In this document: positions 612-10,428 of the stretch, piece by piece | Numbering within the stretch: position 1 is the stretch's first letter | How the letters are laid out: every line of letters begins with the position of its first letter | IMG/VR virus record: IMGVR_UViG_3300037245_003639 | Strand: one strand, 5' to 3' | Origin: a virus | DNA: 10,428 nucleotides | Program-made: the position numbers and the translations under genes | The notes under the pieces: model-generated | Database searches by the model: none | What the model saw: the letters and a program-made list of their open reading frames with translations, nothing else | Told to the model about the DNA's origin: nothing

Positions 612-3600
612 TTATCCGGTGTTCATAGCGTTTCCGCCACCCACGGCAGCAGATCGGTTGTATTGGACGCCTTGATCTTCTGATGTAAATTCATCAATTT
701 CATCAGCGACAGAGATGAGAGCTTTAGCGGCTTTCTTTAGAAGCACGGCAGCATCGACTACTTTATCCCCCGTAGTTCCCATGCCTGTCCCCCCACCAGC
801 AGCGGCTCCACGTCCACCTTGGCCGCGAGTTAGCTTCCGTGCTGTTTCTTGCTGGGCTTGGGTTTTGGCTTGAGCCTCTTTCTGCTTTGCGATTATAGCC
901 TCGTCGGCGGGGCTCCAAGGCATTTGTGAAGTCGCTATATTATGCCGTAGCATAGCCTCTCTCATGACTTTATTGAATTGTTTGAATTCAAGCTCCCGCT
1001 GTGCCGGGTCATAGAGTTTAGCGTTTTCTTTACGAGCCCGTTCAATCTCCTTCTGGGTTCGTTTTTGTTCTCTTGCGGTGCCACCCCTGCGACCCACGAG
1101 GCTGAATGCATAACCAGCTTTCCTGCGTAAGCCACTCTTCTGTTTTCGGGCTGCTCTTTTGACGTTCTCTGCCATGGAAACATCTTGAGCAGTTAATTGA
1201 GGAAAACCCAAATTTTGTTCAATTTGTTTCTGTGCTGCTGGAGTAACTGCTGCACCAGCAGGCGGAGCAACCGCTCCTGCTGCACCAGCAGGCGGTTTAG
1301 TCTGGGCTTCGGCCTGTGCTTTTATAGCTGCCCACACCCGGCTGCCGAATCGCTTCAATTTGACTTTATTCTCTCGTTTCGACTCTTCAGCAGCAAGAGT
1401 ACGAAGTTCCCCTTTTAATCGTCCATATTCCCCTAGTTCTTTAGCAACATTGTCCCGTAAGCGTTGAATATTCTCTTTCTCATGTTGTTCAACAACACCC
1501 CATCCTTTCTCTCTGCCTACCGGATCAAATATCGCTGTTTTAACTCTCCGGAACTTACGACCCAGACGTGATTCGTTTTCTCGGTCACCCCTTTCCAGCA
1601 GAGCCTCAGAAAGCGCCTTAGTATTATATTGCCATCGACCTTTGATTCTATCCCTCTCCTGTTGAAGACCGGCACGCTTCCTTTGTAGCTTGCTCCATGC
1701 AGCAGCATCTTTACCTCCTGGGCCTGCGGCAGCGGCAGCGGCAGCGGCAGCGGCAGCGGCATGGGCAGGGGCGGCACGGGCAGCAGGGGCAGCAGGGGCA
1801 GCAGGGGCTCCGGGTCTTCCTGGGAATTGAACTGTTCTTCCGCCCGTAACAACTCCAACTGGCAGTCGGGTTCTTAACCCACGAGCTGCTCCCCGAGCTG
1901 CTTCGCCTGCTATTAATCCCTCGTTCACTCCGCCTCGAACTCCACCAGCCACGGCTGTGCGGACAGCAGCCCGACCAGCGTAGTCACCAAGAGCATCAAT
2001 AGAATTTACAATTCTATCGGATGTTTCATAAATAGCATCAACCTGTGTTTCAGCAGAGTCATGGATACCCATAACAAGATCCATAGACTCCTTAGTGGCT
2101 TGTCGTTGGGCATCGTCCTGGATATTGGCTAAAGCAGAGCCCATTCGCTCTGCAATTTGCTCCCGACCGAATGCTCCTCCGCCAGTTCGCTGAAGCTCCC
2201 CATAGCCACCCGCTCCAAAACGATATGACGCCGCGTCGGCTCGATTAGCAGCTTCACCGACTTGACCAATCAAATAGTTGGCCTTAACAAGGCCCTTATC
2301 AAGAGCCATTCCAAGATTCTTTTCCTGGTCGATGATAATCTTCTCGAATTCACCCGTAGCAAAAGCTTGAGCCTGGACGGCATCGAGATATCCATCTCTC
2401 AGTTCTTTGACCATGTTTAGTTGGTCAGCCGTAATGCGTTTGATTTGATTCGCTAAATCTCGCTGTTGTTTGAGATATCCACGCGAAGCTCCCTCTTCGG
2501 CAATCCGCTGATTAACGATATCCAACTGGTTTTGCAGTAATCCCTTTTGCTGTTGCAGCTCTCTGGTAACTCGCAGCATTGCCTGGACACCAAGCGCGGG
2601 AGTTCCATAAAGGGCTTTACTAATGTCTAGGTCGGATTTGTGCAAATCTACAAGTTGTTTACTTAGGCTGGTATCGAGTTGAAGGCTCGCGAGTCTCGTC
2701 TCTAGGATAGTAGCTCTAAGAGCTTCAGCTTGAGCGATCTGGTTAAGTGCTTCGCCGATTTTCTTGTGGGCTAATAACTCTTCTGCCCTATTCTTGGCCA
2801 TTGCCAGATCTATCTCAGCCGTCTTAAGACTTTGATCCGCTAATTCTCGCATGAGCGGGATCGTCTTGGCCAAATTATCAGCGATTCGGTCAGCAAGTTC
2901 GGCGCCGCCTGCCAGCCCTCTAATGTCGAGATTAAATCCAAATTCTAATAGACTTTTCAGGCTCTTCACCTGAGATGTTAGCCCTTCTACTCCTTCTCTT
3001 AGCTTCTTGACTCGCTCTTGTAGCTGTCTCCATCTAACCAAATGTTCAGCTTCAACTGCCGGCGTTTTAGCTGAATCCTTTTTCGCATCTATTACATCTT
3101 GTATGTTCTTCCTGACAGCTTCAATAGCGTCAGCGTGGGCTTCTCCTGCCTTTATATCTTTATCGTCATCTCCCCATATAGCGAAGCCTGCAACTAGTGC
3201 GCTAACTGCTCCAATTCCCGCGATTACCCAACCGAGTGGTCCCATCATGGCCTTCCAGAATGAGGAGGCAGCTACTTTGGCTACCGCGAGTGCGCCGCTC
3301 ATACCATGAGTAGCAATTGTGGTAGCAACAATTTGAGCGGCCACCGTAGTAAAAGACTGGATGATGCCTTTTATGGCACTACCTACCCCTGGGAACAATA
3401 ACAAAGCCCCCACGATCTTCAATGGCGCGGGCAGGGCCACGATCCACTTAACTACCTCTGTCAAAAGCTTTCCGAGTGTTTCGAATGTCGAAAGTATTGG
3501 ACCTGAGTTATCTGTGATCCATGTAATAAACTCTTGCATTCCAACAGTTAGCGCTGGTAATATGTCCGAGGAAATATATTCCATTGCATTTTTGATGTCA

Positions 3601-4448
3601 GACCCAAAAGATGTCATAATTGCGGTCGCAGCATTCTGACCCACGGTTCGTATTTGTTCCATTGCTTGGGTCCAGGCCATGGATGCCTGCACATTGGCAT
3701 TCATCACATTTGGCAGGTTGGTCATAATACGAGTCATCTCAACTGCTACTTGTATTGAGTCAGGAGCCCAGAATTCTACTGCTTGAAACATTTGCATAGA
3801 ACCGAATTGACCTTCAAACTCTTTTATAATACGGGCGAAGGCAGCGCGATCAGTAAACCCGGTTGCGAATTCGTTGATCATCTTTCTGGCTTCTTCTCGG
3901 CCCACAACACGAGTGAGTTTGTCTGTTAGACTAGCAAGCGAATCCGAAACGCCAGAATCTAAAGCCGCAGCAGCAGTGAGGCTCTGTTTGGCAAAGTCTG
4001 CAAGGACATCCGCGACAGATTGCATCGAAGCAGCCATTATCCCGGCCTTTTCTGACACGTTAAGATATGATTGGCCTAAATCGCCTAGTGCTTGATTGGC
4101 GTTACGAGTAACGTAAGCAAGTTTCACATAACTCTGATTGTACTTGACTAATACTTTGATGGCCAGACCAACACTCCCGACCAGCCCTGAAATAACGCCA
4201 GTACCAATGGCCACTCCTTTAAAAAAGGCGCGAGTTGATTTGACAGTTTTCCAGATGCTTTTGTTTAGTTTGCCTAGGGATTTGTCAGCTTCTGTCGTCG
4301 CTTCTTCAAATTCTTCCAGGCCGCTGCTTGCTTCGCCCGCAACCTTTTTTATCTTCACTAAATACTTGAGCGCAGCTCCCACATTCTTGAGACTTTCTTC
4401 TATGGAAAGAAGAAGTTTAGTGTCTAGTTGGGTAGGAGCATCGGGCAT
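612..4448 (-). CDS. Tail tape measure protein (1278 aa)
   Basis: It is by far the largest ORF. The protein is Ala/Leu/Gln/Glu-rich with long predicted coiled-coil stretches (e.g. AEELLAHKKIGEALNQIAQAEALRATILETRLASLQ). It has internal glycine-rich hydrophobic segments (PLKIVGALLLFPGVGSAIKGII..., GPLGWVIAGIGAVSALVAGFAIWG) and a highly charged K/R/E-rich C-terminal third with a poly-Ala/Pro linker. ATG 4448..4446 overlaps the upstream stop (TAATG). It sits in a structural operon between small proteins and a further structural gene. Confidence 0.8.
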   Translation of the reverse strand: MPDAPTQLDTKLLLSIEESLKNVGAALKYLVKIKKVAGEASSGLEEFEEATTEADKSLGKLNKSIWKTVKSTRAFFKGVAIGTGVISGLVGSVGLAIKVLVKYNQSYVKLAYVTRNANQALGDLGQSYLNVSEKAGIMAASMQSVADVLADFAKQSLTAAAALDSGVSDSLASLTDKLTRVVGREEARKMINEFATGFTDRAAFARIIKEFEGQFGSMQMFQAVEFWAPDSIQVAVEMTRIMTNLPNVMNANVQASMAWTQAMEQIRTVGQNAATAIMTSFGSDIKNAMEYISSDILPALTVGMQEFITWITDNSGPILSTFETLGKLLTEVVKWIVALPAPLKIVGALLLFPGVGSAIKGIIQSFTTVAAQIVATTIATHGMSGALAVAKVAASSFWKAMMGPLGWVIAGIGAVSALVAGFAIWGDDDKDIKAGEAHADAIEAVRKNIQDVIDAKKDSAKTPAVEAEHLVRWRQLQERVKKLREGVEGLTSQVKSLKSLLEFGFNLDIRGLAGGAELADRIADNLAKTIPLMRELADQSLKTAEIDLAMAKNRAEELLAHKKIGEALNQIAQAEALRATILETRLASLQLDTSLSKQLVDLHKSDLDISKALYGTPALGVQAMLRVTRELQQQKGLLQNQLDIVNQRIAEEGASRGYLKQQRDLANQIKRITADQLNMVKELRDGYLDAVQAQAFATGEFEKIIIDQEKNLGMALDKGLVKANYLIGQVGEAANRADAASYRFGAGGYGELQRTGGGAFGREQIAERMGSALANIQDDAQRQATKESMDLVMGIHDSAETQVDAIYETSDRIVNSIDALGDYAGRAAVRTAVAGGVRGGVNEGLIAGEAARGAARGLRTRLPVGVVTGGRTVQFPGRPGAPAAPAAPAARAAPAHAAAAAAAAAAAAGPGGKDAAAWSKLQRKRAGLQQERDRIKGRWQYNTKALSEALLERGDRENESRLGRKFRRVKTAIFDPVGREKGWGVVEQHEKENIQRLRDNVAKELGEYGRLKGELRTLAAEESKRENKVKLKRFGSRVWAAIKAQAEAQTKPPAGAAGAVAPPAGAAVTPAAQKQIEQNLGFPQLTAQDVSMAENVKRAARKQKSGLRRKAGYAFSLVGRRGGTAREQKRTQKEIERARKENAKLYDPAQRELEFKQFNKVMREAMLRHNIATSQMPWSPADEAIIAKQKEAQAKTQAQQETARKLTRGQGGRGAAAGGGTGMGTTGDKVVDAAVLLKKAAKALISVADEIDEFTSEDQGVQYNRSAAVGGGNAMNTG
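1247..1295. repeat. Two copies of a 19-nt direct repeat (ctgctgcaccagcaggcgg) with a 30-nt period inside the TMP gene. It encodes PPAGAAGAVA / PPAGAAVTPA.
   Basis: The copies at 1247-1265 and 1277-1295 are read directly from the sequence. Confidence 0.7.
1728..1761. repeat. Hexanucleotide microsatellite (GGCAGC) x 5.7, encoding the poly-Ala run (AAAAAAAAAAAA) of the TMP
   Basis: ggcagcggcagcggcagcggcagcggcagcggca is read directly. On the coding strand this is GCTGCC = Ala-Ala. Confidence 0.9.
1782..1808. repeat. 9-nt tandem repeat (AGCAGGGGC) x 3, encoding the PAAPAAPAA segment of the TMP
   Basis: agcaggggcagcaggggcagcaggggc is read directly, adjacent to the hexamer repeat. Confidence 0.85.
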
Positions 4449-5164
4449 TATCTAACCTTTGGTGTAAAACGGTTTCGGCGGCGGCCAGGAACACGAGGGA
4501 AAAATTTCCTAAGAGCCCGCGTGGCCCAACTATTGGGTTTGGGAAATTCTAGGCCTCTATCGTAATATCTGCTCCGCCATTCTTCGGCGGACATACCGAT
4601 GGGAGTGTCCATGGCTCCCCAAAACACTTCAACAGGATTGGGCTGGTTTGATCTGGGTGCTGGAGTAGTAGGTTCTGTCTTTGGCTCTCGTGATCTCATT
4701 TTGTTTAGTGTCGCAGGTGAGAACTCTGCTGTTTTTGTGCTAACTCCAGATTCTATGGCGTGTTGAGGACAAAGCAGAGCCCCTCTTCCTCGACCCGCAA
4801 GATTCTCTGTATCCTTAGCGCATTTACCTGCTGTCCCACAAACAGCACAAGCACCCTGGACGAGAGAGTCTTTATTCTGATTAAGCCACTGATTTCGCGC
4901 AACAGATTGTTGGACTCTTTTGGCTGGACCCTCAACGAGATTACCTACATTGCCTTCAAATACGTCCGTCAGCAATCTTTCTGTCGCTCGACCAGCTTGT
5001 CCAGGTGTTGGAGGAGTTTTGGGGAGTCGGCTACCCCTGCCTGGGTAACCCATGCCTCTTCCCGAATATCCCATGCCTCCAGGCATACGTTGAGAAATAA
5101 TTTTTAGCATAGTGGAACTCCGTCTATTTATATTCCACAATTTTGTCAAAATTCCCCTTGACAT
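4448..5164 (-). CDS. Arg/Gly-rich protein with a Cys4 (zinc-ribbon-like) cluster, translationally coupled to the TMP. It occupies the position where a tail assembly chaperone is normally found. Function unknown.
   Basis: ORF of 238 aa. The more likely start is ATG 5110..5108, preceded by GGAG plus a 7-nt spacer (220 aa). The ATG at 5164 has no SD. Features are a GMGYSGRG/GMGYPGRG tandem repeat, C-x2-C-x5-C-x16-C-P-Q-H (GACAVCGTAGKCAKD...LLCPQH), and a very basic C-terminus (RKFFPRVPGRRRNRFTPKVR). Its stop TAA shares the A with the TMP ATG. Confidence 0.65.
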   Translation of the reverse strand: MSRGILTKLWNINRRSSTMLKIISQRMPGGMGYSGRGMGYPGRGSRLPKTPPTPGQAGRATERLLTDVFEGNVGNLVEGPAKRVQQSVARNQWLNQNKDSLVQGACAVCGTAGKCAKDTENLAGRGRGALLCPQHAIESGVSTKTAEFSPATLNKMRSREPKTEPTTPAPRSNQPNPVEVFWGAMDTPIGMSAEEWRSRYYDRGLEFPKPNSWATRALRKFFPRVPGRRRNRFTPKVR

Positions 5165-5184
5165 TCTTGAGCACTTGCTATATT
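5158..5184 (+). promoter_or_regulatory. Sigma70-like promoter candidate for the plus-strand moron: -35 TTGACA (5158-5163), 15-bp spacer, -10 TATATT (5179-5184). Alternative -10 TATTGT with a 17-bp spacer.
   Basis: Perfect -35 hexamer. The -10 hexamer is 5/6, but the 15-bp spacer is short for sigma70. The predicted TSS is ~3-5 nt before ATG 5194, giving a near-leaderless mRNA. The -35 is the right arm of an inverted repeat TGTCAA-N8-TTGACA (5144-5163). Confidence 0.35.
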
Positions 5185-5193
5185 GTTATCAGT

Positions 5194-5517
5194 ATGTGGG
5201 CTATCATAGGCATTGTGGCTGTGGGAGCATTGGTCTCTCTCTTTTTTCGGAGTTTGTCTAAACCTACTGCCGTAGAAAATGCTGCACAGAGCGGAGATAA
5301 AGCGGCTACTCTTGCAATGCTGATCCATCTCCTCTCAGCGGTTACGGCAGCCACCTGGATGTTCTGCTGGTGTATGCAAAGAGCAGGTAGCAAAATCAAT
5401 GCGATTGAGGTTACTGCCGCATTGTTAATGAGTACATTTGCCGCAGGCGTCGGCTACTGTTTGGGTATCTTTCTGTGGATGCTTATACTCTTCTCTTGGT
5501 GGATGGAATGGCTTTAG
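5194..5517 (+). CDS. Small integral membrane protein (107 aa, three predicted TM helices) encoded opposite to the surrounding operon. Moron-like accessory gene (candidate superinfection-exclusion or other membrane effector).
   Basis: Protein MWAIIGIVAVGALVSLFF...AATLAMLIHLLSAVTAATWMFCWCM...AIEVTAALLMSTFAAGVGYCLGIFLWMLILFSWWMEWL has three clean hydrophobic spans separated by short polar loops. It fills a 349-nt gap that has no credible minus-strand ORF. It has a promoter-like element immediately upstream. The listed TTG start at 5143 would lie upstream of that promoter, so ATG 5194 is preferred. Its stop TAG 5515-5517 overlaps the stop of the convergent 123-aa gene. Confidence 0.5.
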   Translation: MWAIIGIVAVGALVSLFFRSLSKPTAVENAAQSGDKAATLAMLIHLLSAVTAATWMFCWCMQRAGSKINAIEVTAALLMSTFAAGVGYCLGIFLWMLILFSWWMEWL

Positions 5518-5885
5518 ATAGCAATCTTACCCATGATGCCCGCAATAGCGGCTCTGGTCAAAACAGGATTCAGCTCTGACAGGCGTTGAGCCGTCATTTG
5601 ATAAACTTCGTCTCCATCATGCATTTCCAATAGAAGTGTTCTTATAACAGCATCATTGAAAGCGATAGGATTTACATCATTCTCGCTTTTGATCTCTGCG
5701 GCCCCCAGGATATAGTTGCTATCCCGATAAGAGGGCTTTCGGAATACAAACTTCAGCCTTTTGGGCTCGGGCTCTATATCCGGTGGAGCATCCTTTTCGT
5801 CGGGAGATGCCTGCAAATTGCCATCGACTTCCCAGGCCCATATATCCACGCTAATCTTTTCACTTTTTTTGACAAATAGTTCCAT
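5514..5885 (-). CDS. 123-aa acidic protein. Hypothetical, possibly a gpG-like tail assembly chaperone or head-tail joining protein.
   Basis: ATG 5885..5883 is preceded by TAGGAG plus a 7-nt spacer. The previous gene's stop TAG is part of the SD. The protein is acidic with a helical C-terminus (EVYQMTAQRLSELNPVLTRAAIAGIMGKIAI) and sits a few genes upstream of the TMP. Confidence 0.6.
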   Translation of the reverse strand: MELFVKKSEKISVDIWAWEVDGNLQASPDEKDAPPDIEPEPKRLKFVFRKPSYRDSNYILGAAEIKSENDVNPIAFNDAVIRTLLLEMHDGDEVYQMTAQRLSELNPVLTRAAIAGIMGKIAI

Positions 5886-5895
5886 TGGGGAACTC

Positions 5896-6135
5896 CTAAT
5901 CTACGTCTACCCATTGTCCAGTTGCTGGATCAATTCTTCGGTTTTGTGTAAATCTACCTCTCTGCCCTTTCTTGAATCCACTGAGGATTTCATCGGCTTT
6001 GGGGGCTTTCTTCTTCGGCTTATTAGCATCTGCTTCTGCTTCGCGGAAATACAAGAGCAGCCGCAGATGAGTTTGGAAATCGCCGTTATCCATCGAGCGA
6101 ATATCTTCCAGACTCATGCTTGTATGTTGCAGCAT
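5896..6135 (-). CDS. 79-aa Lys/Arg-rich small protein, hypothetical
   Basis: ORF from ATG 6135..6133 with a weak SD (GAAAG). Composition is basic, KPKKKAPK...KKGQRGRFTQNRR. Its stop TAG is fused to the SD of the next gene. Confidence 0.45.
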   Translation of the reverse strand: MLQHTSMSLEDIRSMDNGDFQTHLRLLLYFREAEADANKPKKKAPKADEILSGFKKGQRGRFTQNRRIDPATGQWVDVD

Positions 6136-6209
6136 GTAACTTTCGTAGATCCACGGGAGCAGGTCGTCATCTATATGCTTCCCTGCATAGAAATTATGAG
6201 CTGCCCCCT

Positions 6210-6734
6210 TTAGCCTTTTAGGTCGTCTTCTGTAGGCTCGGTTACTTTCTCGAAGTTAGTAAGTAGTTCCTGAGCTACAACGGGGTCAAGCATGTCGATG
6301 ATATCATACGTTACTTCAATAGCATTTCCTTGCTCATCGACCAGACTCCATTTCTTCAAACACATCTTCAGCTTCAAGTCTCGATATCTAACACCATCGA
6401 GTTCGTTTATGGTCTTGCCATCAGTCGTCGTAATTGTTTTCAAAGAGCGTGAAATGATGGTGTTTTGGTCTTTCCAGTTAGGTTTCGTCCAGTGGGTCAC
6501 AAGTTTGCTAATCATTTTCTTTGGATCTCGAACTTGCTTTATGTCTGGACGGCTGCCCGGTGTTGGAGATGGTTGTTCTTCTCCTTCCGACCAGTAACCT
6601 TTTTTCTTCCATTCGTCAAAATCGTCTTTACTCCGAATGAAGTGAAATAACGAGTTACCGTGCATTTTCACATCTTCAATGTAAAAGAGTTCAATTGCGA
6701 TAAATCGCTTAGTCGGGTCAAGTAATATGCCCAT
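6210..6734 (-). CDS. 174-aa protein, hypothetical. Candidate tail tube, connector or chaperone. Probable start ATG 6734, not the GTG at 6827 given in the ORF track.
   Basis: ATG 6734..6732 is preceded by the strong SD AGGAGG (6746..6741) plus a 6-nt spacer. The upstream 31 codons of the open frame overlap the terminator hairpin and the -10 element, so they are unlikely to be coding. The C-terminus is acidic (VTYDIIDMLDPVVAQELLTNFEKVTEPTEDDLKG). Confidence 0.6.
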   Translation of the reverse strand: MGILLDPTKRFIAIELFYIEDVKMHGNSLFHFIRSKDDFDEWKKKGYWSEGEEQPSPTPGSRPDIKQVRDPKKMISKLVTHWTKPNWKDQNTIISRSLKTITTTDGKTINELDGVRYRDLKLKMCLKKWSLVDEQGNAIEVTYDIIDMLDPVVAQELLTNFEKVTEPTEDDLKG

Positions 6735-6842: not shown

Positions 6843-8057
6843 TTAAGACCAAGCAGGATAAGCGCAGGACGTTGGGCTACCTGACTGGTCAGCGATAGCC
6901 TCGTAGTTGAATTGGTCGTTGCCCATGGCCAGATAATTGACCGTGGTCGTGTACAAATCATTAGTCAACGACATTTCTTCAATACGGAACACAACACCTG
7001 TCAAACGGCGACCAAAGATCGGATCTACCGGCCAGTCTGCGATGCCCGCTCGCCAATCTCGGGAATCAAATGAAGGACGAACACCCGGAACGACAACATC
7101 CGGCAATGTATCTTCACCGATAAAGAAGGCAAAGCGAATTTCGTTCTTCTCTGTGAAGCGGTCCTGGTTACTTTCAGCCAACTCACGCAACCTATTTTGA
7201 AGGCCCATCAACTGGAAACTGCCAGTCACTTCACGTTTCCCAACGTTGATATCAATTGGGAAGAGCGAACCCTGCATGCCATAGAACCGATCAGCGTTAT
7301 TGTTGATTTCAAGATTAAACTCTTGAACCTGGTTCGAGTAGAATAGGTCATGACCCTGACCACCATAGCAGCCCTGAATACCATTGACTGTAAAGTCATT
7401 CCATGTCAAAACACGGGCAGGTGACAAGAATTCACTAATCTCAGGTTCTGCCAAAGGATCATTTGGACGAATACGAGTGCGAGCGATTACGTTTACATCG
7501 AAGGTGATTGCCTCTTGCTGGGTTACAGTGAAACCTAAAGTATTCACAACAGCAGAGTCAAACGTAAACGCTGAGTGGTTAGCATACCGAACGTCTAATT
7601 GCATATCGTCAAATAGCAAACGACCATGGTTTCCACGGGCTGTAGTCCAGCACCAAAGGTTATTCAGAATACCACCGGCAGTCGTAAGATCAGCGACTTC
7701 GGGACAGCCACATGCGCTGCCAATACAATAAAGGTCAGGATCATCTACATCAGCCACGATAGGCAGACTAAGAGTTCCTTCGACAAGCTTCGGTCCCAAC
7801 TGATAGACCGTCTTATCGATACGGCCATCAATGACATCTGGGAGTGTGATTTCTTGAGAAAGGTTGATATCAGCGGATGTGACACGGAGAATATTGTTAG
7901 CACCCAGCTTATTACTCCGCATAATAACGAAGCCGACCCATCCCATGTTTGCAAAATGCCCCGTAAGGTCTGGATTGGAATTAGGGAAGGCGGTTACCGT
8001 CTGATCCGTTGAGGTCAGCCCTTCGCAAGTTGAGATTGCACCTGCTGAACAAGGCAT
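6843..8057 (-). CDS. Major virion structural protein, 404 aa. Candidate major capsid protein, or tail sheath if the module is P2-like (sheath, tube, small proteins, TMP). Not resolvable from sequence alone.
   Basis: ATG 8057..8055 has SD GGAGA plus a 6-nt spacer. The protein is Gly/Thr/Asn/Asp-rich and looks beta-rich. It is followed by the strongest hairpin in the window, typical of the most abundantly expressed structural gene. It contains 8 Cys, including C-x7-C and C-x4-C-x-C clusters. Confidence 0.55.
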   Translation of the reverse strand: MPCSAGAISTCEGLTSTDQTVTAFPNSNPDLTGHFANMGWVGFVIMRSNKLGANNILRVTSADINLSQEITLPDVIDGRIDKTVYQLGPKLVEGTLSLPIVADVDDPDLYCIGSACGCPEVADLTTAGGILNNLWCWTTARGNHGRLLFDDMQLDVRYANHSAFTFDSAVVNTLGFTVTQQEAITFDVNVIARTRIRPNDPLAEPEISEFLSPARVLTWNDFTVNGIQGCYGGQGHDLFYSNQVQEFNLEINNNADRFYGMQGSLFPIDINVGKREVTGSFQLMGLQNRLRELAESNQDRFTEKNEIRFAFFIGEDTLPDVVVPGVRPSFDSRDWRAGIADWPVDPIFGRRLTGVVFRIEEMSLTNDLYTTTVNYLAMGNDQFNYEAIADQSGSPTSCAYPAWS

Positions 8058-8070
8058 AGTTTTCTCCTAC

Positions 8071-8553
8071 CTAAGAGATTCTCGAACTGGTAATCGGGTA
8101 GCCAGCTTGACTAGAAATATCGGCAAATTCCTGCGGCACAGTGATTTTGACATCCTGGCTGTCATTGTAACGACCGTAAATATCTGGATCGGTATCTTCA
8201 TCTGTTACCCCGGGAACATATCCGTCACTTCCAGAGCTGTCTGACTCCAACCAATAGTTAATGTTGGTGTATCTTGTTGCGTTATCCTGAGTACGGGCTT
8301 TCGAAAGAACATGAGCCTGTAGCGAGCCTATAGCGCCAACGACCGCAGCGGGCGTCTGAGTATACAACGCCTGCACAGCCGTATACGCCGTATAAAATGG
8401 CTGCAAGAGGTCAAGCTCAGGATCGAAAACCTGCATTAGGACGATCTCATATGCCGCATCGTAATAGTAGTCGGCCACACCCGCTATCTGAATCTGCGCG
8501 TTAGCGTAGAGAGTAGAAATCGTCTCGTACTGTGATGATTTGATGGCTGCCAT
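8071..8553 (-). CDS. 160-aa acidic protein (Tyr/Asp-rich), hypothetical. It is co-transcribed between the glycosyltransferase and the major structural protein.
   Basis: ATG 8553..8551 has SD AAGGAGA (TAAGGAGAGACTGATG), and the previous stop is embedded in that SD. Its own stop TAG is embedded in the next SD (TAGGTAGGAGAAAACTATG). Confidence 0.6.
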   Translation of the reverse strand: MAAIKSSQYETISTLYANAQIQIAGVADYYYDAAYEIVLMQVFDPELDLLQPFYTAYTAVQALYTQTPAAVVGAIGSLQAHVLSKARTQDNATRYTNINYWLESDSSGSDGYVPGVTDEDTDPDIYGRYNDSQDVKITVPQEFADISSQAGYPITSSRIS

Positions 8554-8563
8554 CAGTCTCTCC

Positions 8564-9811
8564 TTACAGCGTTTCTAGTGAAAGCACTTCGTTTGAAGTC
8601 TCCAACGTTTTGATCATCTTCGCCAGAACTTCTATAAACGCCTGCTTGCTGTCCTGTTTTGAAAATACGGAGAGTTCTTCTCTGTATCCTTCCATCTTTT
8701 CGCGATTTTTGTGCATCCATAATAATCTCTTCTTTAACCCTACAGGATTAGATACTGTGAGATATGTCTCACCTACTGTCATTAGTTTGATACCGGGAAC
8801 CAGCAGAGAATCCCTGCTAAATTCCGTTATCTCTTTCTTTTCGAGCTTTTCAACCAAATCCCTGTTCGAACCACAGTCGCTCATGATAGGAAAACAGCCC
8901 GATGCCATTGCCTCCCAGACCGACATAGAAGTTGCGGAAACCAATGGTATTGATACAAAAACATCCGCTTTAGCATATTCCTCGGCCAATTCGTCAGTTG
9001 AGATGCCCTCTACCAGAGACACAAATTTGTCAGGGAAGCGAATAAACTCATTATCAGGGTCAAATCTTTTACGAACAGTTTCAAGATTGTATTCTCCTTG
9101 GTCACAAATATTAGCGTGAATGTATAGCTCAAGTTCAGGTATCGCCTGTCGCAATTCGGAACATACTTCCATTATCATCGGAAGGTTGTCCGCTTGAGAC
9201 GATTTGCCTAGTGCCATCACTCGGAATTTATTCAGGTCTCGCTTTTCTTCTCTGAAAAATCGCTCATCACAATCAACAAAACTAGCCTCTATATAGGGCT
9301 TCTGAAAAAACTGTTCAATCTCATCACGAGCTAAGTGACTTGCACACAGAACTCCATCCATGTAATCCATAAGTTCAGATAATTCATCCGAAATCGGATA
9401 TTGGGATTGAGCCAGCACGGCCATCCATTTGAATGGTTTAGAAACGAACGTTTTGACAGCTTTCATAAACGCTGCTTCTACCAAATTTCCGATGGTAATT
9501 ACAATATCAGGCTCTAGTAGATTGATAGCCTCATAGATAGGCACAGGATCTGAAAGCCCCTTCAAAAGAGGCATCACCGGAATCTTGTATTCACGAGGAC
9601 TTATTGGTCCATCTGTATCATTAGGCGAGATGGCCTCAAAGCAGTAGTAATATTGTTCATCAACATCTGGGACATGATACGAAATATCATGAGCCCAAGA
9701 AAGACTTATGACAGAGTGTCCTTCAAACAAAAAATGCTTCAGCATTGAAGCGTGAAGCCGACTAACAGATGTAGTGTTATACGGCGACATTCCAATCGTT
9801 ATCACTTTCAC
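8564..9811 (-). CDS. GT-B fold glycosyltransferase, GT4/GT1-like (415 aa), GTG start
   Basis: The N-terminus MKVITIGMSPYNTTSVSRLHASMLKHFLFEGHSVISLS fits the first Rossmann domain pattern of GT-B enzymes (MKI..I.....GG......L...L...GH.V.V). The C-terminal region ...ADVFVSIPLVSATSMSVWEAMASGCFPIMSDCGSNRDLV matches the conserved donor-binding helix (S.xEgfg...lEAMAxGxPvIat..gg..e.v) of retaining GT4 enzymes. GTG 9811..9809 has SD AGGAGA plus a 6-nt spacer, whereas the first in-frame ATG (codon 8) has no SD. Confidence 0.6.
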   Translation of the reverse strand: MKVITIGMSPYNTTSVSRLHASMLKHFLFEGHSVISLSWAHDISYHVPDVDEQYYYCFEAISPNDTDGPISPREYKIPVMPLLKGLSDPVPIYEAINLLEPDIVITIGNLVEAAFMKAVKTFVSKPFKWMAVLAQSQYPISDELSELMDYMDGVLCASHLARDEIEQFFQKPYIEASFVDCDERFFREEKRDLNKFRVMALGKSSQADNLPMIMEVCSELRQAIPELELYIHANICDQGEYNLETVRKRFDPDNEFIRFPDKFVSLVEGISTDELAEEYAKADVFVSIPLVSATSMSVWEAMASGCFPIMSDCGSNRDLVEKLEKKEITEFSRDSLLVPGIKLMTVGETYLTVSNPVGLKKRLLWMHKNREKMEGYREELSVFSKQDSKQAFIEVLAKMIKTLETSNEVLSLETL

Positions 9812-9821
9812 ACTCAGTCTC

Positions 9822-10428
9822 CTAAAAAGTCAAAGGGTCAACATAAGGAACAAGGCGTCTAACCTCTTCTTCGGCGGTATATGAAATCTGAGCCGCTTTG
9901 AGCATTGTTCCTTTATTTACAGTTCCATAATTAGTTGTGTGTGGTATCGCATTAAAAAAGTGACGTTGCGGCATAATCACCGTATCACCAACAGAGAAAC
10001 TTTGGGCCAATGGCCTGAGTAATTGCAGAGTTCCCCCACCCATATCTTCGATAACACGATTGGGGATTAGGTGATCTTCGCTTTCCAGGAAAATCCAACT
10101 GCCATGCGTGCAGGATGTAAAATCAGGATCGGTTACTTGAATTGTCGATTCACCAGCCGCAGCATCCTCAATAAGAGTTGTGCTGAAATAAGGTTGGACC
10201 AAAGGATATAATGAACGAAACAAAGACCTGCGGATCGCTTTTACATAAGCGTGCATTAGTGCATACTGGGATTCGTAATAGGCTAATCCGTCGATATAGA
10301 CTGTGATATCGATCTCAAATTTCTCTCTGGTGGATTCGAGTGTCAACCATTCGCTGCTTAGACTCTTGGCATCTACAGTAATAGCGGGGTACTGCTGGAT
10401 AACAGCAGGGTCTCCCAAGTAAACTGCC
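9822..10428 (-). CDS. 3' portion (>=202 codons) of a gene whose start lies beyond the window end. Hypothetical.
   Basis: The frame is open from the window edge. The M at 10418 in the ORF track is actually a TTG codon, and the reading frame continues upstream (...AVYLGDPAVIQQ...). Stop TAG 9824..9822 is fused to the glycosyltransferase SD (TAGGAGACTGAGTGTG). Confidence 0.55.
   Translation of the reverse strand, partial: AVYLGDPAVIQQYPAITVDAKSLSSEWLTLESTREKFEIDITVYIDGLAYYESQYALMHAYVKAIRRSLFRSLYPLVQPYFSTTLIEDAAAGESTIQVTDPDFTSCTHGSWIFLESEDHLIPNRVIEDMGGGTLQLLRPLAQSFSVGDTVIMPQRHFFNAIPHTTNYGTVNKGTMLKAAQISYTAEEEVRRLVPYVDPLTF

What the first reader, a model, noticed from the sequence alone, without database searches (positions are those of the whole stretch)
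5111..5517. Opposite-strand three-TM membrane protein moron with its own near-consensus promoter, inserted between the tail genes
The only large gap in an otherwise gap-free operon (349 nt) has no minus-strand coding capacity. Instead it encodes, on the plus strand, a 107-aa protein with three clean TM helices. Upstream is TTGACA-15-TATATT, placing the TSS within ~5 nt of the ATG, so the mRNA would be leaderless. The gene is divergent from the Cys4 protein/TMP unit and converges tail-to-tail with the 123-aa gene, with the stop codons overlapping at 5514-5517. This is the architecture of a phage moron. A prophage-expressed membrane protein here may serve superinfection exclusion, injection blocking or host-envelope modification. 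The -35 is also one arm of the inverted repeat TGTCAA-N8-TTGACA (5144-5163), a possible operator.
Basis: partly seen in the sequence, partly recalled or inferred. Interest (0 to 1): 0.6.

Follow-up and report, generated by a model that had tools for sequence, protein, structure and literature searches.

The report
Reverse-strand membrane gene beside tape-measure gene
A small three-helix membrane protein gene, with its own strongly conserved host-type promoter, sits backwards inside a phage tail operon next to the tape-measure module; it is real and kept in all six close relatives where the slot was recovered, and it most likely blocks DNA injection by rival phages, as the unrelated HK97 gp15 does from the same slot.

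Summary
Window 5194-5517 (+) encodes a 107-aa protein with three hydrophobic helices, preceded by TTGACA-15-TGcTATATT (or TTGACA-17-TATTGT). The ATG lies 7-9 nt after the -10, and the stop overlaps that of the convergent 123-aa tail gene.

Comparative data make it a real gene. All six diverged relatives with sequence at this slot carry an opposite-strand ORF there: five with three hydrophobic segments (100-114 aa) and one cut down to the third helix (58 aa). All seven loci (window included) have the same promoter. Three (window, L006, L009) are leaderless; four have a leader with a GGAGG-type Shine-Dalgarno.

The protein is only 14-49% identical between loci, while neighbours are 62-91%. Its similarity tracks the downstream pre-TMP/tape-measure module, not the upstream 123-aa gene. 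A more distant relative (tube 56% identical) lacks the gene.

No homologue exists outside this small clade, and no Pfam, PHROG, PADLOC or fold match was found.

The "moron" label is only partly right: own promoter yes, but no conserved terminator, no GC deviation, and fixed across the clade. The proposed operator repeat is not conserved.

Best functional reading, inferred and untested: a host-polymerase-expressed inner-membrane superinfection-exclusion protein acting on tape-measure-mediated DNA entry. It is an analogue, not a homologue, of HK97 gp15.

The parts
5194..5517 (+). Coding sequence of the 107-aa three-helix membrane protein (ATG 5194, TAG 5515-5517). The third helix carries an invariant GxxxG (G87, G91).
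   Evidence: Searches give the sequence, hydropathy and helices. Searches show syntenic ORFs of 100-114 aa in L002, L004, L014, L006 and L009, and a 58-aa remnant in L013; codon-usage odds are +0.20 in this frame and negative in the other five.
5158..5163 (+). -35 hexamer TTGACA
   Evidence: All six bases are identical in 7 of 7 loci although synonymous sites between the loci are saturated. The motif occurs once per locus, always at this gene.
5176..5186 (+). Extended -10 region: TGc-TATATT (5176-5184, 15-nt spacer) overlapping TATTGT (5181-5186, 17-nt spacer). The expected transcription start is about 5191-5194.
   Evidence: Relatives have TGC-TA(T/C)nnT at 16-17 nt in 5 of 6; L014 has TACATT at 17 nt without the TG.
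5148..5157 (+). Conserved A-rich tract plus CCCC immediately upstream of the -35. Possibly an UP-like element.
   Evidence: positions -11 to -1 relative to TTGACA are conserved in 5-7 of 7 loci.
5128..5134 (.). Conserved TTATATT box between the pre-TMP Shine-Dalgarno and the -35. Function unexplained: a regulator site, a translational enhancer, or a -10-like element for the pre-TMP strand.
5514..5885 (-). 123-aa tail-module gene (g123), convergent with the membrane gene. Their stop codons overlap.
4448..5110 (-). 220-aa 'pre-TMP' gene with CxxC...CPxH, divergent from the membrane gene. Its true start is 5110 and its end overlaps the TMP start (ATGA at 4448).
612..4448 (-). Tape-measure protein, 1278 aa. 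This is the presumed target module.
   Evidence: phrog_58, phrog_1533..
5896..6734 (-). Tail assembly chaperone pair. G is 6210-6734. The T extension is in the -1 frame, open from 6255 to 5898. A conserved CTAAAAG-type slip site lies near 6215-6222.
5771..5798 (+). Terminator-like hairpin plus T-run, 254-279 nt downstream of the membrane gene's stop and inside g123. It is not conserved in relatives.

Best explanation
Window 5194-5517 is a real, monocistronic gene for a small inner-membrane protein. It has three hydrophobic helices, and the third is long and carries a conserved GxxxG.

Its own strong sigma-70-type promoter (TTGACA, extended -10) transcribes it against the direction of the tail operon. 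In this phage the transcript has little or no leader.

Because the host polymerase can read this promoter without phage late factors, the protein would be made in a lysogen or immediately after infection, and would insert into the cytoplasmic membrane.

Most likely it acts as a superinfection-exclusion (injection-blocking) protein, interfering with the channel that the incoming tape-measure protein forms. That would explain three things: its position next to the tape-measure module, its fast evolution, and its co-inheritance with that module.

Shown: the gene, its topology pattern, its promoter, its synteny, its rate and its mosaic linkage.
Inferred: membrane location, timing of expression, the exclusion function and the tape-measure target.
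For: Gene reality:
- The ORF is open for 115-138 codons on this strand in all six full-length loci, against 57-91 codons on the other strand.
- Synonymous sites are saturated even in the conserved neighbours.
- Codon usage fits only this frame.
- Three hydrophobic segments sit at matching positions in six proteins.
- The alignment shows invariant M1, G87 and G91.

Promoter:
- TTGACA is identical in 7 of 7 loci; TGC-TAnnnT follows 15-17 nt later in 6 of 7 (L014 has TACATT without the TG).
- The ATG lies 6-9 nt after the -10 in the window, L006 and L009.
- The other four loci have a 17-29-nt stretch between the -10 and the ATG carrying GGAGG or AGGAG, which fixes the orientation and the start codon.

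Fast evolution and linkage:
- Membrane protein identity is 14-49%. The tube is 82-91% and g123 is 62-83%. Pre-TMP is 31-60% and TMP 27-58%.
- Membrane protein similarity correlates with pre-TMP (Spearman 0.48, naive p 0.026) and not with g123 (-0.05). For example, L009 and L013 are lowest in g123 but highest in the membrane protein, pre-TMP and TMP.

Slot:
- It lies between the G/GT chaperone pair and the TMP.
- HK97 gp15 lies in the same place and blocks genome injection from the inner membrane in a tail-dependent way.
- TP-J34 Ltp exclusion is escaped by TMP changes.

The outgroup L015 lacks the gene.
Against: - There is no sequence, profile or fold similarity to any known exclusion protein. 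The hhalign probability against gp15 is 0.5%, and PADLOC, Pfam, PHROGs and BFVD gave nothing.
- No expression or phenotype data exist.
- Lifestyle is unknown. The only hint of a prophage is that the same protein is recorded on a 403-kb contig that I could not retrieve.
- Fast divergence could simply reflect the loose sequence constraints on small membrane proteins.
- Co-variation with the TMP side could be plain physical linkage, and it rests on 6-7 taxa.
- One contig (L011) carries a frameshift in a T-run, and L013 keeps only one helix, so the full protein may be dispensable.
- The 15-nt spacer in this window is suboptimal.
Confidence: 0.45

Rival explanations
1. A host-polymerase-transcribed small membrane protein with another role unrelated to exclusion. 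Candidates are host takeover, envelope or transport modification, or lysogenic conversion. Its position beside the TMP would be a historical accident of insertion.
For: The same structural facts apply: conserved promoter, membrane topology and own transcription unit. No similarity to any exclusion family was found. Many phage early genes and morons encode small membrane proteins of unknown role.
Against: It does not explain why similarity tracks the pre-TMP/TMP side, nor why it occupies the same slot as gp15. The GT1 glycosyltransferase nearby is also present in the outgroup that lacks this gene, so there is no functional pairing with it.
Confidence: 0.3
2. A holin-like or other lysis-timing membrane protein (class I holins have three membrane helices and about 105 aa).
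For: Size and three hydrophobic segments match, and the likely topology is N-out, C-in with positive residues after the first helix.
Against: Five of the six full-length members lack the charged cytoplasmic C-terminal tail. No endolysin is adjacent in the window or in the relatives. The gene is antisense to the late operon and sits behind a consensus constitutive promoter, which would be lethal for a holin. There is no PHROG holin hit.
Confidence: 0.07
3. The main function is regulatory. The conserved strong convergent promoter drives antisense transcription into g123 and the chaperone genes, giving transcriptional interference or antisense control of the tail operon. The ORF would be secondary.
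For: The promoter is far better conserved than the coding sequence. No conserved terminator follows the gene, so transcripts should run antisense into g123. L013 lost two thirds of the ORF but kept the promoter.
Against: The ORF stays open and keeps its topology and GxxxG in six saturated lineages. Start-codon contexts are maintained, either leaderless ATG or SD plus ATG. Even L013 keeps a strong SD, an ATG and a membrane helix.
Confidence: 0.1
4. Not a gene: a chance ORF and chance promoter in a non-coding spacer.
For: In the single window the ORF length alone is only about p = 0.01. Promoter-like hits are at the chance level window-wide. There are no database homologues outside the clade.
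Against: Everything comparative argues against it.
Confidence: 0.02

Closest known systems
HK97 gp15 moron (YebO-like inner-membrane superinfection-exclusion protein)
   Same: Both are small membrane protein genes inserted in a siphovirus tail operon between the G/GT tail assembly chaperones and the tape-measure gene. Both are independent transcription units. gp15's exclusion depends on the incoming phage's tail/TMP region.
   Different: There is no homology (hhalign probability 0.5%). gp15 is 62 aa with one hydrophobic helix, is co-oriented with the tail genes and has its own annotated terminator. The present gene is 107 aa with three helices, is reverse-oriented, has no conserved terminator and is separated from the TMP by a pre-TMP gene. 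It is fixed throughout its clade rather than sporadic.
Other injection-blocking membrane or lipoproteins of siphophages (TP-J34 Ltp, Tuc2009 Sie2009) and T4 Imm
   Same: These are small envelope-located proteins made before or independently of late genes that block DNA entry. Ltp is escaped by TMP mutations. That T4 Imm is an early membrane protein rests on my own knowledge.
   Different: They are unrelated in sequence and lie in the lysogeny or early regions, not inside the tail operon. Ltp is a lipoprotein, and no conserved lipobox is present here.
HK97 gp23 'reverse moron'
   Same: It is an opposite-strand small gene embedded among tail genes, with its own signals.
   Different: It lies at a different position, downstream of the tail tip genes. 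It has an annotated terminator. No relationship was tested beyond the annotation.
Leaderless prophage transcripts such as lambda cI from PRM (own knowledge)
   Same: The ATG is at or within about 3 nt of the predicted transcription start and no Shine-Dalgarno is present, in the window, L006 and L009.
   Different: The start site here is predicted, not mapped. Four relatives use a leader with a Shine-Dalgarno instead, so being leaderless is not a fixed property of the family.
Class I holins (lambda S type)
   Same: About 105 aa with three hydrophobic helices.
   Different: There is no charged C-terminal tail, no lysis cassette context, and a constitutive-type promoter antisense to the late genes.

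Membership tests
Moron (Juhala/Hendrix sense, as summarised in PMC3594210) | Own promoter, independent of the surrounding operon | tested here: met
   TTGACA in 7 of 7 loci with TGnTAnnnT 15-17 nt later in 6 of 7 (L014: TACATT without the TG), oriented toward the ORF.
Moron (Juhala/Hendrix sense, as summarised in PMC3594210) | Own terminator | tested here: not met
   No conserved hairpin plus T-run within 420 nt downstream in the 7 loci. The window alone has one, at +254 to +279 inside g123. The stop codon overlaps the convergent gene, leaving no room.
Moron (Juhala/Hendrix sense, as summarised in PMC3594210) | An obvious addition: absent at the same site in related phages | tested here: inconclusive
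   Present in all 6 close relatives with sequence at the slot. Absent in the single distant relative L015, where g125 is followed after 38 nt by pre-TMP. With one outgroup, gain and loss cannot be told apart.
Moron (Juhala/Hendrix sense, as summarised in PMC3594210) | GC content or codon usage differing from the neighbours | tested here: not met
   GC is 0.481 against 0.42-0.50 in the neighbours. Codon-usage odds are +0.20 against 0.14-0.31.
Moron (Juhala/Hendrix sense, as summarised in PMC3594210) | Expressed from the repressed prophage | not testable with these tools
   No transcript data. Lifestyle unknown. The 403-kb contig that carries the gene could not be retrieved.
HK97 gp15 / YebO family | Sequence homology | tested here: not met
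   hhalign probability 0.5%. No Pfam hit.
HK97 gp15-like function (injection-blocking exclusion) | Located between the tail chaperone and the tape-measure gene | tested here: met
   G/GT pair at 5896-6734 and TMP at 612-4448. HK97 layout.
HK97 gp15-like function (injection-blocking exclusion) | Inner-membrane protein | tested here: inconclusive
   Three hydrophobic segments in six members and three helices in a low-confidence model. This is prediction only.
HK97 gp15-like function (injection-blocking exclusion) | Blocks DNA entry of the same or related phages; escaped by tail/TMP changes | not testable with these tools
   Needs plating, DNA-entry and TMP-swap experiments. The only indirect hint is co-variation with pre-TMP/TMP.
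Class I holin | Three membrane helices, about 100 aa | tested here: met
Class I holin | Charged cytoplasmic C-terminal tail; late expression beside an endolysin | tested here: not met
   The C-termini end in WWMEWL, GWDMT and the like. No lysin is nearby. The promoter is sigma-70-type and antisense to the late genes.
Leaderless mRNA | Transcription start at or within a few nt of the AUG, no Shine-Dalgarno | tested here: inconclusive
   The spacing from the -10 to the ATG is 6-9 nt with no SD in the window, L006 and L009. The start site is not mapped.

The most novel reading that the evidence does not exclude
The membrane protein and the tape-measure module form a co-evolving 'lock and key' cassette fixed in a whole phage lineage. 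A conserved promoter and a conserved g123 3' end would act as recombination boundaries between which hypervariable exclusion alleles are exchanged together with, or matched to, TMP and pre-TMP alleles. Each phage type would then exclude its own kind and escape others. The third helix with its GxxxG, which is the only part retained in L013, would be the minimal TMP-interacting unit.
Probability: 0.2. Interest if true: 0.6.

Novelty: new member of a known kind. Interest (0 to 1): 0.35.

Why it matters
If the function is right, this is a second, unrelated protein family that has settled in the same genomic slot as HK97 gp15. It comes from an uncultured siphovirus lineage with no isolate relatives.

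Its comparative signature is unusually clean: an invariant promoter, a hypervariable protein, and linkage to the tape-measure side. That makes it a tractable natural series of allele pairs for asking how membrane proteins block tape-measure-mediated DNA entry, a mechanism still unknown for gp15.

It also shows that small reverse-strand ORFs in tail operons, which gene callers missed in 3 of the relatives' contig sets (L006-L008, L010, L011), can be real genes.

Tried and rejected
1. Frameshift extension of g123 into the gap, as the T part of a G/GT chaperone. Rejected: the -1 frame has stops at 5529, 5427 and 5337, the +1 frame has many, and the zero frame has stops at 5516 and 5456. The real G/GT pair lies upstream.
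2. The minus-strand ORFs in the gap (73 aa TTG at 5399-5178; 60 aa at 5328-5146). Rejected as antisense shadows: negative codon odds, and broken in relatives.
3. The inverted repeat TGTCAA-N8-TTGACA as an operator. The left arm is absent in all six relatives.
4. A divergent sigma-70 promoter for pre-TMP using the left arm as its -35. The spacing to the TATAAA-like box is 11 nt and no -35 is present in relatives, so this was not accepted. The TTATATT box remains unexplained.
5. Homologue searches all returned only clade members or low-complexity noise. These were the single sequence against 5.8 billion proteins, exhaustive HMMER against 1.8 billion representatives and a 7-sequence profile.
6. 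Pfam, PHROGs and PADLOC gave nothing. Rfam gave nothing in the window.
7. AlphaFold plus Foldseek against BFVD gave a low-confidence model and no hit with E below 1.
8. Searches for more loci:
   - The viral-contig scans with single proteins and both genome-contig scans found nothing.
   - The metagenome scan returned only two loci already in hand.
   - The tube-profile scans found only L015.
   - A promoter-pattern scan of viral contigs returned 3 chance matches.
   - INPHARED phages gave no DNA or tube-protein match.
9. dN/dS was not informative because dS is saturated.
10. Host identification. TnpB in L005 is at best 42% identical to Nostoc or Oscillatoria plasmid copies, which is only a weak hint.
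11. My first version of the family alignment (A4) contained a hand-typed L013 tail that was wrong. It was discarded and replaced by A5, built from coordinates.
Full report
**Context**

The window is the minus-strand tail module of an uncultured siphovirus-like element. In transcription order it carries:
- a 198-aa protein (9822-10418);
- a GT1 glycosyltransferase (8564-9811);
- a 160-aa protein (8071-8553);
- a Phage_tube_2 tail tube protein (6843-8057);
- a 174-aa protein (6210-6734);
- a 79-aa ORF (5896-6135);
- a 123-aa protein, g123 (5514-5885);
- the gap;
- a 220-aa protein, pre-TMP (4448-5110);
- a 1278-aa tape-measure protein, TMP (612-4448).

Head genes lie upstream in an overlapping contig. 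Nothing similar exists among isolated phages, by DNA or by tube protein.

**The observation**

The + strand ORF 5194-5517 encodes 107 aa. It has three hydrophobic segments, at residues 3-21, 40-58 and 82-100. AlphaFold, run with a 5-sequence alignment, gives three long helices (2-21, 35-64, 70-103) at a mean pLDDT of only 65.

Upstream lies TTGACA (5158-5163). After a 15-nt spacer comes TATATT (5179-5184), preceded by TG (5176-5177). The overlapping TATTGT (5181-5186) has a 17-nt spacer and was the best promoter-like hit in the window. The ATG is 9 or 7 nt beyond the -10, with no Shine-Dalgarno, so the predicted leader is 0-3 nt.

The TAG stop overlaps the TAA of g123 on the other strand (5514-5517). 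The repeat TGTCAA-N8-TTGACA is present at 5144-5163.

All stated features are therefore real. Taken alone they are only mildly improbable: 46 of 5000 shuffles give an open frame of at least 124 codons, and promoter-like hits are at the chance level window-wide.

**Two corrections**

The downstream minus-strand gene starts at 5110, not 5164. The GGAG Shine-Dalgarno at 5118-5121 and the N-terminus MLKIIS match relatives. The gap is therefore 403 nt.

The minus strand is not devoid of open frames. A 91-92-codon frame lies exactly antisense to the ORF. It has negative codon-usage odds (-0.26, against +0.20 for the + frame and 0.14-0.31 for neighbouring genes), and it is broken in relatives.

A G/GT-style frameshift extension of g123 into the gap is excluded by stops in the -1 and +1 frames.

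**Comparative evidence**

The ORF has no detectable homologue by single-sequence search. The adjacent g123 does, with seven homologues at 62-75% identity. Their contigs gave six independent loci that contain the slot.

- L002, L003/L004, L014, L006-L008 and L009-L012 all carry an opposite-strand ORF of 100-114 aa. It ends at or overlaps the g123 stop and has three hydrophobic segments at matching positions.
- L013 has a shorter gap and a 58-aa ORF that corresponds to the third helix only.
- Gene callers had missed the ORF in L006-L008, L010 and L011.

The alignment has only M1, G87 and G91 invariant, which gives a GxxxG in the third helix. Pairwise identities are 14-49%.

Synonymous sites are saturated even in g123. 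An ORF spanning 115-138 codons on this strand in six lineages cannot be neutral. The other strand is open for only 57-91 codons.

One near-identical contig (L011, compared with L009) has an extra T in a T6 run that frameshifts the ORF. This may be an assembly error or a population variant.

**The promoter**

Anchoring the divergent intergenic regions on TTGACA shows the hexamer identical in 7 of 7 loci. It is preceded by a conserved A-rich tract plus CCCC. TGC-TA(T/C)nnT follows 15-17 nt later in six loci; L014 has TACATT at 17 nt without the TG. The motif occurs once per locus, always here.

- In the window, L006 and L009 the ATG follows the -10 by 6-9 nt with no Shine-Dalgarno.
- In L002, L004, L014 and L013 a 17-29-nt stretch separates the -10 from the ATG. 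It carries AGGAG, GGAGGA or (L004) a weaker GGAAAGGAAG, 3-9 nt before the ATG.

This alternation is what one expects if transcription really starts about 7 nt after the -10 and the annotated ATG is the start codon. The leaderless reading is thus well supported by sequence, though unmapped.

A separate TTATATT box (5128-5134) between the pre-TMP Shine-Dalgarno and the -35 is conserved and unexplained.

No conserved terminator follows the gene. Transcripts should therefore run antisense into g123.

**Evolutionary pattern**

Identity drops sharply at this gene.
- Upstream: tube 82-91%, the 174-aa protein 69-87%, the 79-aa ORF 58-81%, g123 62-83%.
- From here on: membrane protein 14-49%, pre-TMP 31-60%, TMP 27-58%.

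Similarity of the membrane protein correlates with pre-TMP (Spearman 0.48, naive p 0.026, 21 pairs) and not with g123 (-0.05). For example, L009 and L013 are among the least similar in g123 (66%) but the most similar in the membrane protein, pre-TMP and TMP.

So a mosaic boundary lies at the g123/membrane-gene junction, and the gene travels with the tape-measure side. L006 suggests another boundary at the conserved promoter. The sample is small, and physical linkage alone could explain the correlation.

The only more distant relative found (L015, tube 56% identical) has g125 followed after 38 nt by a 100-aa pre-TMP and then TMP. It has no reverse gene and no promoter motif. The gene was therefore either gained at the base of the clade or lost in L015.

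GC content (0.48) and codon usage do not differ from the neighbours.

**What it is like**

The 174-aa and 79-aa genes are a classical G/GT tail-chaperone pair. The 79-aa frame is the -1 frame of the 174-aa gene in all seven loci. It is open across the last 13-46 nt of that gene, which hold a conserved CTAAAAG-type site (T_TTA_AAA in L005). The residues upstream of the annotated ATG are conserved, and they are fused in a 201-aa protein in L015.

The membrane gene thus sits between the tail chaperones and the TMP. This is the slot of the first described moron, HK97 gene 15. Its product inserts in the inner membrane and blocks genome injection in a manner that depends on the incoming phage's tail and TMP region.

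In the HK97 record gp15 is 62 aa, co-oriented with the tail genes, followed by its own terminator, and directly upstream of the TMP gene. It shows no profile similarity to the present family. TP-J34 Ltp exclusion is likewise escaped by TMP changes.

No Pfam, PHROG, PADLOC, Rfam or fold match was obtained.

**Mechanism**

With about 0.95 confidence this is a real, separately promoted small membrane-protein gene.

With about 0.45 confidence it is an exclusion protein, made by the host polymerase in a lysogen or early in infection, that interferes with TMP-mediated DNA entry. This reading explains the slot, the host-type promoter that opposes the late operon, the fast divergence and the linkage to the TMP module.

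The rivals are:
- a membrane protein with another early or conversion role (0.3);
- a primarily regulatory convergent promoter (0.1);
- a holin-like protein (0.07, disfavoured by the uncharged C-terminus, the context and the promoter type);
- chance (0.02).

Lifestyle is unknown. The protein is recorded on a 403-kb contig, which suggests a prophage in a chromosome, but I could not retrieve that contig. TnpB in L005 weakly hints at cyanobacteria.

**Verdict**

The 'moron' interpretation is partly supported: the own promoter, the gp15-like slot and the absence from an outgroup fit. The lack of a conserved terminator, the lack of compositional deviation and the fixation across the clade do not, and the operator is not supported.

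It is a new, clade-restricted protein family of a known kind. Interest is moderate (0.35).

Noticed in passing
window 5896-6734 (minus); slip site about 6215-6222: The 174-aa gene and the '79-aa' ORF form a G/GT-type tail chaperone pair joined by a programmed -1 frameshift. The 79-aa frame is the -1 frame and is open from 6255. It overlaps the last 13-46 nt of the upstream gene in all 7 loci, across a conserved (C/T)(C/T)TAAAA(G/A) site. Residues upstream of the annotated ATG are conserved, and in L015 they are fused in a 201-aa protein.
   Followed up: yes
window 5128-5134: A TTATATT box lies between the pre-TMP Shine-Dalgarno and the membrane gene's -35. It is conserved in most of the 7 loci (5-6 of 7 per position). 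On the pre-TMP strand it reads AATATAA, 5-9 nt upstream of GGAG. It has no matching -35, and its function is unexplained.
   Followed up: partly
window 4448-5164 (minus): The 'Cys4' pre-TMP gene starts at 5110 (220 aa), not 5164. It carries CxxC...CPxH, varies from 100 to 220 aa among relatives, is 31-60% identical, and its stop overlaps the TMP start (ATGA at 4448).
   Followed up: partly
window 8564-9811 (minus): A GT1-family glycosyltransferase is embedded in the tail module between structural genes. It is conserved in all relatives, including the outgroup L015. It may glycosylate the virion.
   Followed up: no
L005 6698-7903: A TnpB / IS605 OrfB gene (401 aa) is inserted between the T-frame ORF and g123 in one relative. 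Its best plasmid matches are Nostoc and Oscillatoria at 37-42% identity, which is a weak host hint.
   Followed up: partly
L011 about 2350 (equivalent to L009 2397): A single extra T in a T6 run inside the membrane gene frameshifts it in one otherwise 99.96% identical contig. This is either an assembly error or a natural knockout or phase variant.
   Followed up: partly
L013 606-782: This is a deletion variant. The membrane gene is reduced to 58 aa (the third helix with its G-rich motif), and it overlaps the g123 3' end by 48 nt. The promoter and a strong GGAGGA Shine-Dalgarno are retained.
   Followed up: partly
window 612-4448 (minus), TMP residues about 830-870 and 1010-1040: The tape-measure protein contains long Ala/Pro low-complexity tracts (for example PAAPAAPAARAAPAHAAAAAAAAAAAAGPGG). 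TMP length varies from 1054 to 1881 aa among relatives.
   Followed up: no
L018 1974-3089; L002 993-2078: A 361-371-aa protein in the head module carries a precomputed hit to PF25216 (Volactin). This is odd for a phage structural region, and it may be the capsid protein or a spurious hit.
   Followed up: no
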